Shown here one piece after another: positions 57,267-62,644 of a stretch of 64,000 nucleotides of DNA. How positions within the stretch are numbered: the first letter of the stretch is position 1; every line of letters begins with the position of its first letter. Both the position numbers and the translations under genes were made by a program. This stretch comes from the human T2T-CHM13v2.0 reference genome, Homo sapiens. The stretch is taken from the NCBI RefSeq assembly GCF_009914755.1, contig NC_060927.1. One strand, given 5' to 3'. The notes beneath the pieces were generated by a model, which saw only the letters and a list, made by a program, of their open reading frames with translations, did no database searches and was not told where the DNA came from.

Positions 57267-58086
57267 TGAGAAGTGAAGCCAGCTGGGCTTCTGGGTCAGG
57301 CGGGGACTCAGAGAACTTTTCTGTCTAGCTAAAGGATTGAAAACACACCAATCAGCACTCTGTGTCTAGCTAAAGGTTTGTAAACGCACCAATCAGCACT
57401 CTGTAAAAACGCACCAATCAGCACTCTGTGTCTACCTAAAGGTTTGTAAATGCACCAATCAGTACTCTGTAAAAACGCACCAATCAGTGCTCTGTGTCTA
57501 GCTAAAGTTTGTAAACACATCAATCAGCACTCTGTAAAAAGGGACCAATCAGCACTCTGAAAAATGGACCAATCAGTGCTCTGTAAAAGGGACTAATCAG
57601 CAAGACATGGGCGGGGCCAAATAAGGGAATAAAAGCTGGCCACCCAAGCCAGCAGCGGCAACCTGCTCGGGTCCCCTTCCATGCTGTGGAAGCTTTGTTC
57701 TTTCGCTCTTTACAATAAATCTTGCTGCTGCTCACTCTTTGGGTCCACGCTACCTTTATGAGCTGTAACACTCACTGCAAAGGTCTGCAGCTTCACTCCT
57801 GAAGTCAGCAAGACCACAAACCCACCGGAAGGAACAAACAACTCTGGACACACCACCTTTAAGAGCTGCAACACTCACTGCGAAGGTCTGTGGCTTCACT
57901 CCTGAAGTCAAGTGAGACCACGAACCCACTGGAAGGAAGAAACTCTGGACACATCTGAACATCTGAAGGAACAAACTCCAGACACACCATCTTTAGGAAC
58001 TGTAACACTCGCTGCGAGGGTCTGCAGCTTCATTCTTGAAGTGAGTGAGACCAAGAACCGACCAGAAGGAACCAATTCTGGACACA
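57267..58086 (+). promoter_or_regulatory. LTR12 3' LTR (CCAAT array, GC box, TATA-like AATAAAA)
   Basis: Copy of the 5' LTR; GGGCGGGG at 57609-57616 precedes gggaataaaag. Confidence 0.92.
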
Positions 58087-58484
58087 ACATCATACTTACT
58101 GGTGAAGTACTGAAAGCTTCCTCCCTAAGAACAGGAGCAAGACAAAAATGTCTACTCACCACTTGTATTCAACATTGTACTGGAGATTCCAGCCAGAACA
58201 CTTAATCGAGAAAATTAATAAAGACATACAGATTAGGAGAGAAGAAGTAAAACTCACTATTTGCAGATTACATGATTCAAGGTTGCAGGATATAAGATCA
58301 ATAACAAATAATGGTTGTATTTGTATATCAGCAATGAAAAAGCCAAAAATGAAATTAAGAAAACAATATCATTTACAACAGCATCAAAAAAGTACAATAC
58401 TTAGGAATAAATTTTACACAAAAAGAGCAAGATCTGTACACTGAAAACTCCAAAACATTGTTGAAAGAAGTTTAAGAAGACCTA

Positions 58485-58596
58485 GACAGCGGAGGCCTAG
58501 GTGGCAGACAGGGGGCCCGGGCCGCTGCGTGTTGTCCACCCAAGATGGAGTTCCTCCTGGGGAACCCGTTCAGCACACCAGTGGGGCAGTGCTTCG
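58485..58596 (+). pseudogene. TOM1L2: Retrotransposed TOM1L2 first-exon fragment (5' UTR plus about 17 codons)
   Basis: caagATGG then [17 protein letters not shown], matching the recalled TOM1L2 N-terminus [19 protein letters not shown]-rich 5' UTR; lies inside the SVA TSD. Confidence 0.85.
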
Positions 58597-60698
58597 AAAA
58601 TGCCACACAAACACAACCATGGGTATTTAGCTCTACTGAAACAGATGAGGGAAGTAAGGCTGACAGAGGAGCTCAAATCAGTTCTGATTTTTCTCTTCAT
58701 AAAAGAATTTCCATTCTGCAGCATTCATTCAGGAAGCACTCATGAAGAGCCTACCAGGTGCCGGCCCTGGCCTGGGGCTGGGCTTAGAGCCGGGGCAGGA
58801 TGGCCCAGCATCTGCTCCATGGAGCTCACAGCCCAGCCTAGGCTGGCAACTCCAGTCTGCCCCAGTTTCCAGTTCTGTCCATTCCCCTTGCAGCTCAGCA
58901 TGGATGAAGCTTTGAAATCCAGCTCTCCCTCTCCCTCTCCCTCTCCCTCTCCCTCTCCCATCTCCCCACGGTCTCCCCCGTCTCCCCACGGTCTCCCTCT
59001 CCCTCTCCCGTCTCCCCACGGTCTCCCTCTCCCTCTGTTTCCACGGTCTCCCTCTCATGCCGAGCCGAAGCTGGACTGTACTGCTGCCATCTCGGCTCAC
59101 TGCAACCTCCCTGCCTGATTCTCCTGCCTCAGCCTGCCGAGTGCCTGCGATTGTAGGCACGCGCTGCCACGCCTGACTGGTTTTCGTATTTTTTTTGGTG
59201 GAGACGGGGTTTCGCTGTGTTGGCCTGGCCGGTCTCCAGCTCCTAACCGTGAGTGATCCGCCAGCCTCGGCCTCCCGAGGTGCCGGGATTGCAGACGGAG
59301 TCTCGTTCACTCAGTGCTCAATGGTGCCCCGGCTGGAGTGCAGTGGCATGATCTCGGCTCGCTACAACCTCCACCTCCCAGCCGCCTGCCTTGGCCTCCC
59401 AAAGTGCCGAGATTGCATCCTCTGCCCGGCCGCCACCCCGTCTGGGAAGTGAGGAGCGTCTCTGCCTGGCCGCCCATCGTCTGGGATGTGAGGAGCCCCT
59501 CTGCCTGGCTGCCCAGTCTGGGAAGTGAGGAGCGTCTCCGTCCGGCCGCCATCCCATCTAGGAAGTGAGGAGTGCCTCTTCCCGGCCGCCATCCCATCTA
59601 GGAAGTGAAGAGCGTCTCTGCCCGGCCGCCCATCGTCTGAGATGTGGGGAGCGCCTCTGCCCCGCCGCCCCGTCTGGGATGTGAGGAGCGCCTCTGCCCG
59701 GCCGTGACCCCATCTGGGAGGTGAGGAGCGTCTCTGCCCAGCCACCCCTTCTGAGAAGTGAGGAGACCCTCTGCCTGGCAACCGCCCCGTCTGAGAAGAG
59801 AGGAGCCCCTCTGCCCAGCAGCCACCCCGTCTGAGAAGTGAGGAGCCTCTCCGCCCGGCAGCCACCCCATCTGGGAAGTGAGGAGCGTCTCCGCCCGGCA
59901 GCCACCCCGTCCGGGAGGGAGGTGTGGGGGTCTCCCCCCCGCCCGGCCAGCCGCCCCGTCCGGGAGGTGAGGGGCGCCTCTGCCCGGCCGCCCCTACTGG
60001 GAAGTGAGGAGCCCCTCTGCCCGGCCAGCTGCCCCATCCGGGAGGGAGGTGGGGGGGTCAGCCCCCCGCCTGGCCAGCCGCCCCGTCCGGGAGGTGAGGG
60101 GCGCCTCTGCCCGGCCGCCCCTACTGGGAAGTGAGGAGCCCCTCTGCCTGGCCACCACCCCGTCTGGGAGGTGTGCCCAACAGCTCATTGAGAATGGGCC
60201 ATGATGACAATGGCGGTTTTGTGGAATAGAAAAGGGGGAAAGGTGGGGAAAAGATTGAGAAATCGGATGGTTGCCATGTCTGTGTAGAAAGAGGTAGACA
60301 TGGGAGACTTTTCATTTTGTTCTATACTAAGAAAAATTCTTCTGCCTTGGGATCCTGTTGATCTGTGACCTTACCCCCAACCCTGTGCTCTCTGAAACAT
60401 GTGCTGTGTCCACTCAGGGTTAAATGGATTAAGGGCGGTGCAAGATGTGCTTTGTTAAACAGATGCTTGAAGGCAGCATGCTCGTTAAGAGTCGTCACCA
60501 CTCCCTAATCTCAAGTACCCAGGGACACAAACACTGCGGAAGGCCGCAGGGTCCTCTGCCTAGGAAAACCAGAGACCTTTGTTCACTTGTTTATCTGCTG
60601 ACCTTCCCTCCACTATTGTCCTATGACCCTGCCAAATTCCCCTCTCCAAGAAACACCCAAGAATGATCAATAAAAAATAAATTAAAAAAAAAAAAAAA
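58485..60698 (+). mobile_element. 5'-transducing SVA (SVA_C/D-like core from about 58923)
   Basis: (CCCTCT)n, antisense Alu-like region, GC-rich VNTR, SINE-R, AATAAA 60669-60674 and poly(A). TSD (AAA)GAAGTTTAAGAAGACCTA at 58464-58484 and 60696-60716 brackets about 440 bp of non-SVA 5' sequence. Confidence 0.95.
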
Positions 60699-61257
60699 GA
60701 AGTTTAAGAAGACCTAAATAAAGACATCTGTGTCTGTAGGTTAGAAGACTTAATATTGCTAAAATGACAATATTCCCCAAATTGATCTACAGATTTAGCA
60801 TAATCCCTATCAGAATTCAGCTGACTTCTTTTGCAGAAATTGACAAGCTGGTTCTAAAATTCATATGGAAAGTCAAGGGATTCAGAATAGCCAAAGCAAT
60901 CTTGAAAAAGAAAAACAAAGTGGGAGGGCTCACACTTCCTGATTTCAAAACTTACTACGAAGCTACAGTAATCAAACTGGTTTGGTACAGGCACAAACAC
61001 AGACATATAGGTCAGTGAAATAGAATAGAGAGTCTGAAAGAAACCCATATATCTATGGTCAATTTAGTTTTGACAAGGGTGCCAAGTCCATTCAATGGGA
61101 AAACAATTGTCTTTTTGACAAATTATGCCAGAACAACTCGACATCCACATGTAAAAGAATGAATTTGAACCTAGCCTCACTCCATACACAAAACTTAAAA
61201 TGGATCAAAGATCTAAATGTAAGAGCTAAAGCTATAAAACTCTTAGAATTTTAAATC

Positions 61258-61590
61258 GGCCAGGTATGGTGGTTCACACCTGTAATCCCAGCACTTTGGG
61301 AAGCTGAGGTGGGAGAATCACTTGAGCCCAGGAGTTTGAGACCAGCCCAATCAACATAGTGAGACCCCATATCTTAATAAATACATACTTTAAAAAATAA
61401 AAGAACAAAAAAATGAAAAAAATAAATAGCCAGGCATGGTGGTGTGTGCCTGTAGTCCCAGCTACTCAGGAGGCTGAGGTGGGAGGATCACCTGAGTCCA
61501 GGAAGGTCAAGCCTGCAGTGAGCCAAAGTTGCACCACTGCACTCCAGCCTGGACAACAGAGTGACACCCTATCTCCAAAAAAGAAAAAGA
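61258..61590 (+). mobile_element. Alu (AluJ-like) with an expanded A-rich linker
   Basis: cttgagcccaggagtttgagacc left arm; the right arm ends in A-rich sequence. Confidence 0.88.
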
Positions 61591-62116
61591 GAGAAAGAAA
61601 ATCATTTTCTCTTAGTGTTCAAATTTGTCACCATCAATATTTCCTTGTATTTATTTAAATTTCCCTGTGGCTATTTCACCTTTTTCATTCCACTTCATTC
61701 TCTTGATTACCCAGGTTGGTAAACTGTGTATCTTTAAAACTGGTCTTGTCAGAATACTGCCTTTTAAATTTATTTTCCACTACCCATCTTTGTTTTCTAT
61801 GCATTAATTTAAGTTTTGATCTTTATTTGACTGCTTTCCAGATTCATCTGGTGTATCTTTTTCTAGTTTCCTAAGGCTTTGTGAGGCACCGAGTCAAGGG
61901 AAGAGAGGAAGTGCTAAATCTCACCAGACGCTAGAGAGTGATATGGGGATGCACCGTCATGGTCCTCCCTGCTTTGCCATGCTGATGATAATGAGAAGGG
62001 ACTGTGGATGGACTTCACATGAGGAGAGCCCTGCTATGGAATGGCACTCAAGTGCTCTATTTTTCCACCCTCAGCTCTGACACATCTCTGACAGGAGGCA
62101 AGCAGACACATGGTAC

Positions 62117-62471
62117 TGAGGAGAGAGGCCATTTCTCTTACTGTCTCCTGTCTCTGAAGAGAATGAGGAAGTAAAAGCTGAAGAACAACAGGAATGAAGT
62201 CAGTGGCAAGACCAACTGGTGCCACTGACCAGACCTGAGATTGAAAGATTAACCCTCCCCACCCCCGACTCTAACCACATGTGCTCTCAATCTATCACAA
62301 CACTTTCACATGGACCCCTTAGAGTTGAAAGCCCTTTAAAGGGCCAGGAACTCTTTCTTTAGGGAGCTCGGTTCTTGAGATGCAAGTCGGCCAATGCTCC
62401 CGGGGGAATAAAGCCTCTTCCTTCTTTAACCCAGTGTCTGAGGGGTTTTGTCTGCAGCTCATCCTGCTACA
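62117..62471 (+). mobile_element. ERV1-class solo LTR directly upstream of IQCF2
   Basis: TG...CA termini (tgaggagaga...tcctgctaca), exact 4-bp TSD GTAC, tttaaa TATA-like box, AATAAA 62407-62412. Subfamily not assigned. Confidence 0.85.
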
Positions 62472-62644
62472 GTACAAGTTCCCCTGGAGTTTGTTTCTGA
62501 CAGAGACACATCTCTGTGGCAGATGTCCCAATCCCTATGTCATAATGCAATTGTGAATTCAGAGCTCTCTCCTCACTCACGTTACTCATGCCAGACCTTG
62601 GGAAGCAGAGAAATCAGGGCTAATGAACCATCTAAGGACAGGCC

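What the first reader, a model, noticed from the sequence alone, without database searches (positions are those of the whole stretch)
58485..60716. SVA carrying a captured TOM1L2 first exon spliced to a cryptic exon (exon-shuffled retrocopy)
Seen: the 18-21-bp TSD encloses about 440 bp ahead of the SVA hexamers. This segment holds a GC-rich 5' UTR and [17 protein letters not shown], then with no GT donor about 325 bp of intron-like DNA with MIR-like (acagatgagggaag) and L2-like (cattcattc) traces. Known: the peptide matches the TOM1L2 N-terminus, a gene on another chromosome, and SVAs acquire 5' transductions from host promoters (for example MAST2 in SVA_F1). Inference: a TOM1L2-promoter transcript spliced exon 1 to a cryptic acceptor upstream of an intronic SVA, was polyadenylated there and retrotransposed here. 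That implies a source SVA in TOM1L2 and perhaps a family of sibling copies. It may already be listed in SVA transduction surveys.
Basis: partly seen in the sequence, partly recalled or inferred. Interest (0 to 1): 0.85.

Follow-up and report, generated by a model that had tools for sequence, protein, structure and literature searches.

The report
SVA carrying spliced TOM1L2 exon 1
A full-length SVA retrotransposon on chromosome 3 carries, at its front, the first exon of the chromosome 17 gene TOM1L2 spliced to a piece of that gene's first intron, which is a clear but already documented kind of exon capture by a mobile element.

Summary
An exact 21-nt target-site duplication (58464-58484 and 60696-60716) encloses a 2,211-nt insert: 438 nt of non-SVA DNA followed by a complete SVA.

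- 58486-58596 copies the first exon of a TOM1-family gene on chr17, on the minus strand (110 of 111 nt identical). It ends exactly at that exon's GT donor.
- 58597 onward continues exactly after a canonical AG acceptor 58,640 nt downstream in intron 1 of the same gene.
- A sense-oriented SVA sits there on chr17.

One refinement: the 438 nt has three parts, not two. The last 209 nt (58714-58922) is an older 5' transduction. The chr17 SVA brought it from chr6p21 and has its own 13-nt duplication. Six other SVAs in this assembly carry the same segment, and the chr6 origin has no SVA here. The route was therefore chr6, then chr17, then chr3.

No second copy with TOM1L2 sequence exists in this genome.

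SVA 5' transduction, exon splicing and concatenated transductions are all in print. Pugacheva et al. 2016 list TOM1L2 among promoters trapped by SVAs. I rate this real and tidy, but already known, with low interest.

The parts
58464..58484 (+). 5' target-site duplication, AAAGAAGTTTAAGAAGACCTA
   Evidence: Exact 21-nt direct repeat, family D5, spacing 2232.
58485..58485 (+). Untemplated G at the 5' end of the insert. Inferred to be cap-derived, marking a full-length transcript.
   Evidence: The window has G where chr17 has T just upstream of the matching exon sequence. The cap-derived reading is inference from recalled knowledge of L1-mediated retrocopies.
58486..58596 (+). Copy of TOM1L2 exon 1: 59 nt of 5' UTR, then ATG at 58545 and 17.3 codons.
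   Evidence: 110 of 111 nt identical to C17:17919049-17918939, minus strand. The parent exon is followed by GTAAGG. The chr22 paralogue match stops at the same base.
58597..58713 (+). Native TOM1L2 intron-1 sequence used as a cryptic exon. Its last 13 nt (58701-58713, AAAAGAATTTCCA) are the 5' target-site duplication of the chr17 source SVA.
   Evidence: Identical to C17:17860298 downward, and preceded on chr17 by CTTCTTTCTTTTCATTTTGCAG. The same 13-mer follows the chr17 SVA's A-tail.
58714..58922 (+). Older 5' transduction that originated at chr6p21 (C6:36759546-36759761).
   Evidence: The sequence is contiguous with unique DNA on both sides at the chr6 locus, which has no SVA. It is present next to the SVA hexamers in 8 SVA copies, including the window and chr17.
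58923..59036 (+). SVA hexamer (CCCTCT)n region
   Evidence: TRF period 6, 18.7 copies.
59037..59418 (+). SVA Alu-like region. The name is recalled.
   Evidence: Homologous to the same region in the 7 other copies. No repeat library was available to name it.
59419..60173 (+). SVA VNTR
   Evidence: TRF periods 40, 77 and 156 over 59419-60173; direct repeat families D1, D2, D4.
60174..60674 (+). SVA SINE-R region, ending in AATAAA (60669-60674). The name is recalled.
   Evidence: Sequence read. The roughly 499-nt block (60174-60672) aligns across all 8 copies.
60675..60695 (+). A-rich tail
   Evidence: Sequence read.
60696..60716 (+). 3' target-site duplication
58545..58745 (+). Chimeric 66-codon open frame: 17 TOM1L2 residues followed by 49 residues read from intron and chr6 DNA, then a stop.
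   Evidence: No Pfam family at E up to 1. There is no evidence that it is expressed.

Best explanation
This is a full-length SVA retrotransposon, copied into an old L1 remnant on chr3 by the LINE-1 machinery. Its RNA was a TOM1L2 transcript.

Shown steps:
1. An SVA that already carried 209 nt of chr6p21 DNA at its 5' end inserted, in sense orientation, into intron 1 of TOM1L2 on chr17.
2. A transcript joined TOM1L2 exon 1 at its normal GT donor to a cryptic AG acceptor. That acceptor lies 117 nt upstream of the intronic SVA insertion.
3. The transcript ran through the SVA.
4. The resulting sequence is now at chr3, with an A-tail and a 21-nt target-site duplication.

Inferred steps:
- Transcription started at the TOM1L2 promoter.
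- The extra 5' G came from the RNA cap.
- The transcript ended at the SVA's AATAAA.
- L1 ORF2p carried out the insertion.
- The chr6p21 progenitor SVA is absent from this assembly because it is polymorphic or lost.

The captured piece holds only 17 codons of TOM1L2. It is a lineage tag and a possible regulatory fragment, not a gene copy.
For: - Insertion hallmarks: an exact 21-nt duplication, AATAAA plus an A-tail, and a downstream flank (60740-61018) matching LINE-1 ORF2p residues 808-898 at E 3.6e-30.
- Exon part: 110 of 111 nt identical to C17:17919049-17918939. The parent sequence is followed by GTAAGG.
- Intron part: 325 of 326 nt identical from C17:17860298 downward. The parent sequence is preceded by a pyrimidine-rich tract and AG, and followed by an SVA on the same strand.
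- Gene identity: VHS-domain exons lie on the same strand further downstream, at C17:17854138-227 and 17840350-502. Exon 2 translates to a peptide 26 of 27 identical to TOM1 VHS in 1ELK, E 2.2e-12, with a weaker match to TOM1L1.
- Source element: the chr17 SVA has its own duplication, AAAAGAATTTCCA, which encloses the 209-nt chr6 segment. The window contains the upstream copy of that duplication in its chr17 context.
- Chr6 origin: it shows the segment inside unique DNA, with no SVA.
- Closest relative: across the contiguous alignment that runs into the VNTR, chr17 is the nearest copy. It is 97.2% identical over 1,450 nt, against 88.6-94.2% for the six others.
Against: - The SVA bodies of the window and chr17 differ more than the unique parts do. 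There are 8 of 484 differences in the hexamer and Alu-like region and 13 of 499 in SINE-R, against 2 of 437 in the transduced part.
- I found no substitution in the SVA body shared only by these two copies. Descent may therefore have gone through another chr17 allele or a lost intermediate, or gene conversion may have acted since.
- No ape genome or human pangenome was available, so empty sites were not seen.
- The name TOM1L2 rests on recalled map position, on elimination among the TOM1 paralogues, and on PMC5007689. No annotation of chr17 was consulted.
Confidence: 0.94

Rival explanations
1. Indirect descent. The chr3 copy was made from an intermediate offspring of the chr17 element that already carried the exon 1 and cryptic exon head and has since been lost or is polymorphic. 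On this reading it was not made directly from the chr17 locus.
For: The SVA body differs from chr17 at 21 of 983 aligned sites, against 2 of 437 in the unique head. The window also has two extra hexamer units and a longer VNTR.
Against: No such intermediate exists in this assembly. Of the 4 places found with the TOM1L2-derived part, one is the window itself, two are the chr17 parent places and one is the chr22 paralogue. CpG decay accounts for 9 of the 21 sites, and VNTR instability could explain the rest.
Confidence: 0.1
2. Template switching. L1 reverse transcriptase jumped from an SVA RNA onto a separate TOM1L2 mRNA during insertion, giving a chimeric retrocopy with no spliced precursor.
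For: Chimeric retrocopies made by template switching are known. [quoted passage not shown]
Against: Both sides of the junction fall exactly on a GT donor and an AG acceptor of one gene, in genomic order and on one strand. The 117 nt beyond the SVA insertion are intronic, so they would be absent from mature mRNA.
Confidence: 0.02
3. DNA-level duplication or an assembly artefact joined chr17 pieces next to an SVA on chr3.
For: None found.
Against: A 58,640-nt intron is removed precisely. The insert has an A-tail and an exact 21-nt duplication inside an L1 ORF2 remnant.
Confidence: 0.01

Closest known systems
SVA_F1 (MAST2 exon 1 fused to SVA_F)
   Same: A GC-rich first exon of a host gene sits at the 5' end of an SVA. 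It was acquired by splicing of a host-promoter transcript containing an intronic sense SVA (passages in PMC12593883; PMC6139936; PMC5007689).
   Different: In F1 the exon is spliced into the Alu-like region and replaces the hexamers, and the form expanded to about 84 copies. Here the acceptor is intronic, 326 nt upstream of intact hexamers, and there is one copy. The head maps to chr17 and chr6 only.
Spliced exonic 5' transductions of polymorphic SVAs (MRPS18A, LINC02916, UQCRC1; PMC12593883)
   Same: Host promoter, exon splicing, read-through to the SVA poly(A) site, then retrotransposition (passage read).
   Different: Those cases splice exon 1 into the SVA, or exon 1 to the normal exon 2 followed by read-through. 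Here exon 1 is joined to a cryptic acceptor in intron 1, bypassing exon 2, which lies downstream of the SVA.
Concatenated (serial) SVA transductions
   Same: Transduced sequence from more than one source locus sits on one SVA, showing that offspring became sources. PMC12593883 reports 27 such cases and cites earlier work.
   Different: This is a reference-genome example in which the second step also involved splicing. The first source locus, on chr6, is empty in this assembly.
Chimpanzee pt_SVA_D6 (STK40 exon 1 fused to SVA)
   Same: A first exon was captured by splicing, and members carry additional 5' transductions including exons of other genes (PMC6139936).
   Different: It is a different species and gene, the exon is joined to the Alu-like region, and there are 94 copies.

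Membership tests
Canonical full-length SVA retrotransposon | (CCCTCT)n hexamer array at the 5' end | tested here: met
   TRF period 6, 18.7 copies, 58923-59036.
Canonical full-length SVA retrotransposon | GC-rich VNTR with units of about 35-50 nt | tested here: met
   TRF period 40, 18.8 copies, 59419-60173.
Canonical full-length SVA retrotransposon | Alu-like and SINE-R modules matching the family consensus | not testable with these tools
   No Dfam or RepeatMasker library was available. The blocks are homologous in 8 of 8 compared copies, and the module names are recalled. The subfamily (D, E or F) was not assigned.
Canonical full-length SVA retrotransposon | AATAAA, A-tail and target-site duplication (L1-mediated insertion) | tested here: met
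   AATAAA at 60669-60674 and the tail; exact 21-nt duplication.
SVA 5' transduction with a spliced host exon | Non-SVA sequence lies between the 5' duplication and the hexamers and maps to a unique locus directly upstream of another SVA | tested here: met
   The 438 nt head: its 58597-58922 part maps directly upstream of the chr17 SVA.
SVA 5' transduction with a spliced host exon | The junction coincides with a GT donor and an AG acceptor of one gene, in order and on one strand | tested here: met
   ...CCTCG|GTAAGG and ...TTTTGCAG|AAAATG, 58,640 nt apart on the chr17 minus strand.
SVA 5' transduction with a spliced host exon | The site is empty in genomes that lack the insertion | not testable with these tools
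   Only this one human assembly could be searched.
SVA_F1 | MAST2 exon 1 replaces the hexamers and most of the Alu-like region | tested here: not met
   Hexamers and the Alu-like region are intact. The head maps to chr17 and chr6, with one paralogue hit on chr22.
Retrogene or exon-shuffled coding copy of TOM1L2 | Carries a functional part of the parent's coding sequence | tested here: not met
   Only 17 codons of exon 1 are present. The 66-codon chimeric frame has no Pfam match at E up to 1.

The most novel reading that the evidence does not exclude
The TOM1L2 intron-1 SVA may be a host-promoter-driven source that is still active. It might even be the unnamed 'hot' chr17 SVA_E source with 65 5'-transduction offspring mentioned in PMC10681720. 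Its chr6p21 progenitor, absent from this assembly, would then be a segregating or extinct master element. On that reading, the chr3 copy is the fixed fossil of a TOM1L2 isoform (exon 1, cryptic exon, SVA poly(A)) that truncates the gene in the germ line, and the three-step relay from chr6 to chr17 to chr3 has not been described as such.
Probability: 0.1. Interest if true: 0.4.

Novelty: already known. Interest (0 to 1): 0.25.

Why it matters
The element is a compact worked example of how SVAs borrow host promoters and move exons. The whole ancestry can be read from one sequence: a chr6 flank, the chr17 target-site duplication, chr17 intron, a splice junction and the host first exon.

It also records that a sense SVA in TOM1L2 intron 1 once acted as a premature terminal exon in the germ line. 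It places a CpG-containing TOM1L2 5' fragment 1.9 kb upstream of IQCF2.

None of this changes what is understood about SVA biology. The phenomenon has been in print since 2009, and this gene is named in a 2016 list.

Tried and rejected
- translated one base out of frame. It was redone.
- Pfam gave nothing for the 66-residue chimeric frame or for the two L1-like flank frames (0 credible families for 3 proteins at E up to 1). The L1 identity of the flank was then shown against solved ORF2p structures.
- I looked for further copies carrying TOM1L2 sequence and found none. Of the 4 places found, one is the window itself, two are chr17 parent places and one is a chr22 paralogue.
- I looked for substitutions in the SVA body shared only by the window and chr17 and found none. 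The link between the two rests on the shared unique chr17 DNA.
- A target-site duplication for the chr3:46.5 Mb cousin could not be recognised.
- Literature:
  - Damert et al. 2009 and Hancks et al. 2009, the two surveys most likely to list this element, are not held.
  - Two full-text searches found only PMC5007689 linking TOM1L2 with SVA elements.
- PMC10681720 gives no coordinates for its hot chr17 source in the sections read.
- The MIR and L2 labels and the SVA subfamily were not tested.

Full report
**What is in the window**

Reading 58300-60900 shows an insert bounded by an exact 21-nt direct repeat, AAAGAAGTTTAAGAAGACCTA, at 58464-58484 and 60696-60716 (family D5). From 58923 the insert has the layout of a complete SVA:
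- a period-6 CTCTCC array at 58923-59036;
- a block homologous to the same region of other SVA copies up to 59418;
- a VNTR with a 40-nt unit at 59419-60173;
- a roughly 500-nt 3' block ending in AATAAA (60669-60674) and an A-rich tail.

Ahead of the hexamers lie 438 nt that are not SVA (58485-58922). The ATG at 58545 opens [22 protein letters not shown]... for 66 codons (one search was a frame slip on my part).

The downstream flank, 60740-61018, matches human LINE-1 ORF2p residues 808-898 at E 3.6e-30. The target was therefore an old L1 remnant.

**Where the 438 nt comes from**

A search of the window's own assembly with 58485-58922 returned 11 places, all 11 scored:
- the window itself;
- C17:17918931-17919049, minus strand (query 2-120, 97%, E 6.8e-48);
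- C17:17859973-17860299, minus strand (query 112-438, E 5.4e-165);
- a short 87% match on chr22 that ends exactly at query 112;
- C6:36759546-36759761 (query 223-438);
- six further places matching only the 3' part of the query.

On chr17 the first place reads ...TT|ACAGCGGAGG...CAGTGCCTCG|GTAAGG. The window copy is 110 of 111 nt identical (58593 T against C). It stops exactly at the GT donor and begins with a G where chr17 has T.

The second place reads ...GCTTCTTTCTTTTCATTTTGCAG|AAAATGCCACAC.... The window continues from 58597 exactly after that AG and is 325 of 326 nt identical (58807 A against G, at a CpG). The two chr17 points are 58,640 nt apart, on one strand and in transcript order.

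**Is the chr17 gene TOM1L2?**

No annotation of chr17 was available, so I tested the identity indirectly.
- Pfam VHS (PF00790) finds exon-sized matches on the same strand downstream, at C17:17854138-17854227 (profile positions 10-39) and 17840350-17840502.
- The first of these is bounded by AG and GT. It continues the exon 1 frame and translates to [27 protein letters not shown].
- That peptide is 26 of 27 identical to the TOM1 VHS structure 1ELK (E 2.2e-12) and more distant from TOM1L1 (E 0.0011).
- Separate VHS genes sit at the chr22 place and at C17:55.78 Mb.

The chr17p gene is therefore a third TOM1 paralogue. Calling it TOM1L2 rests on my recall of its map position and N-terminus. It also rests on PMC5007689, which names TOM1L2 among promoters 'trapped by SVA repeats' (passage and section 10 read).

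The intronic SVA lies between exon 1 and exon 2, so it is in intron 1, about 4.1 kb upstream of exon 2 and in sense orientation.

**The source element and an older layer**

On chr17 the sequence after ...TTTGAAATCCAG runs straight into SVA hexamers, as it does in the window. The chr17 SVA has its own duplication. AAAAGAATTTCCA precedes TTCTGCAGC... about 209 nt upstream of the hexamers, and the same 13-mer follows its A-tail. The chr17 insertion therefore already included those 209 nt.

Their origin is C6:36759546-36759761. There the same sequence continues into unique DNA on both sides, and no SVA is present (...GAAATCCAG|AGAGGAAGATC, no GT).

Six other SVAs carry the chr6 segment directly on their hexamers: chr6:74.84 Mb, chr3:46.51 Mb, chr12:100.26 Mb, chr2:198.18 Mb, chr14:57.37 Mb and chrX:50.55 Mb. 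This holds in two searches (in one search all 9 places were scored: the window, chr17, the chr6 origin and these six).
- Target-site duplications are recognisable for 7 of the 8 SVA-linked copies. None could be recognised for chr3:46.51 Mb.
- Three of the 8 copies (chr17, chr3:46.51, chr12) start at the same base.
- One copy (chr6:74.84) starts about 27 nt further upstream, and the others start further in.
- Three of the 8 (the window, chr2, chrX) begin with a G that the parent sequence lacks.

The window head thus has three layers: TOM1L2 exon 1 (58486-58596), native TOM1L2 intron (58597-58713, ending in the chr17 duplication) and chr6p21 DNA (58714-58922).

**Mechanism**

The following steps are shown:
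- the junction sits on a canonical donor and acceptor of one gene;
- the source SVA is in sense orientation downstream of the acceptor;
- the chr17 duplication lies inside the window's head;
- the chr3 insert has an A-tail and a target-site duplication.

The following steps are inferred:
- transcription began at the TOM1L2 promoter, with the extra 5' G read as a cap-derived base (recalled knowledge);
- exon 1 was spliced to the cryptic acceptor instead of exon 2;
- the transcript was polyadenylated at the SVA's AATAAA;
- LINE-1 ORF2p inserted it at a TG/AAAG site in the L1 remnant;
- earlier, an SVA at chr6p21 that this assembly lacks gave rise to the chr17 copy and its cousins by upstream-initiated transcripts.

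**Results that sit less well with the model**

The window and chr17 differ at 2 of 437 sites in the transduced head. They differ at 8 of 484 sites in the hexamer and Alu-like region and at 13 of 499 in SINE-R. Nine of those 21 are at CpGs, and some are clustered.

The window also has two more hexamer units and a longer VNTR. I saw no substitution in the SVA body shared only by the two.

Over the contiguous alignment that runs into the VNTR, chr17 is nevertheless the closest copy: 97.2% over 1,450 nt, against 88.6-94.2% for the six cousins.

CpG decay, VNTR instability, gene conversion, a different chr17 allele or a lost intermediate could each account for the excess. I cannot tell which. From 2 differences in 437 nt, the chr3 insertion is probably a few million years old at most. 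That estimate is inference from recalled substitution rates, and its range is wide.

**Copies carrying TOM1L2 sequence**

A search with 58485-58720 found 4 places, all 4 scored: the window, the two chr17 parent places and the chr22 paralogue. The tool warns that its counts are lower bounds for common repeats, but this query is unique sequence.

**Comparison with what is known**

SVA 5' transduction, exon capture by splicing and serial transductions are established.
- PMC12593883 (abstract and passages read) describes exonic 5' transductions generated by splicing. [quoted passage not shown] It cites Damert et al. 2009 and Hancks et al. 2009.
[quoted passage not shown] 2009, and to the chimpanzee STK40 analogue.
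- PMC5007689 names TOM1L2.

I could not read Damert 2009 or Hancks 2009 (not held), nor Table S3 of PMC5007689 (supplements closed). These may give the coordinates and the layered structure. Two full-text searches found no other open paper linking TOM1L2 to SVA elements.

Since this assembly holds exactly one SVA with TOM1L2 exon sequence, the published TOM1L2 entry is very probably this element.

It is not SVA_F1. The hexamers and Alu-like region are intact, and the head maps to chr17 and chr6. It is not a retrogene either, because only 17 codons are carried and the chimeric frame has no Pfam match.

**Verdict**

One layer is added here (chr6, then chr17, then chr3), and the source element has been located. 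It belongs to a well-described class and is already named in print. Interest is low (0.25) and the novelty rating is 'already known'.

The boldest reading not excluded is that the TOM1L2 intronic SVA is still an active, host-driven source, possibly the unnamed hot chr17 source in PMC10681720. I put this at about 0.1.

Noticed in passing
window 58597-58609, compared with L019 221-209 (minus strand): The cryptic exon starts AAAATGCCACA and the true exon 2 starts AAAAGGCAACA. The chimeric frame therefore reads QCFENAT where TOM1L2 reads QCLEKAT. This is probably chance resemblance around two acceptors.
   Followed up: no
L004 1501-1716 (C6:36759546-36759761): The origin of the 209-nt transduced segment shared by 8 SVAs has no SVA in this assembly. 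It differs from all 8 copies at one base (T against C, segment A, column 131). The progenitor is presumably polymorphic or lost.
   Followed up: partly
L014 (C3:46509000-46515000): The chr3:46.5 Mb cousin sits in the A-rich linker of an Alu, and no target-site duplication could be recognised. The 3' flank is not Alu, so a target deletion or a 3' transduction is possible.
   Followed up: no
window 57322-57602: There is a tandem array of units of about 25, 41 and 66 nt, rich in CCAATCAGC (TRF). By recall this looks like an LTR12-type LTR lying just upstream of the L1 remnant.
   Followed up: no
SINE-R columns 6-61: The chr17 source has five private changes clustered within about 55 nt at the start of SINE-R, and the window has a private 3-nt change near its end (columns 476-478). 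Changes this clustered suggest gene conversion or multi-base events rather than independent point mutations.
   Followed up: no
window 60716-62593: The SVA ends 1,877 nt upstream of IQCF2 exon 1, in the same orientation. Any effect on that gene was not examined.
   Followed up: no
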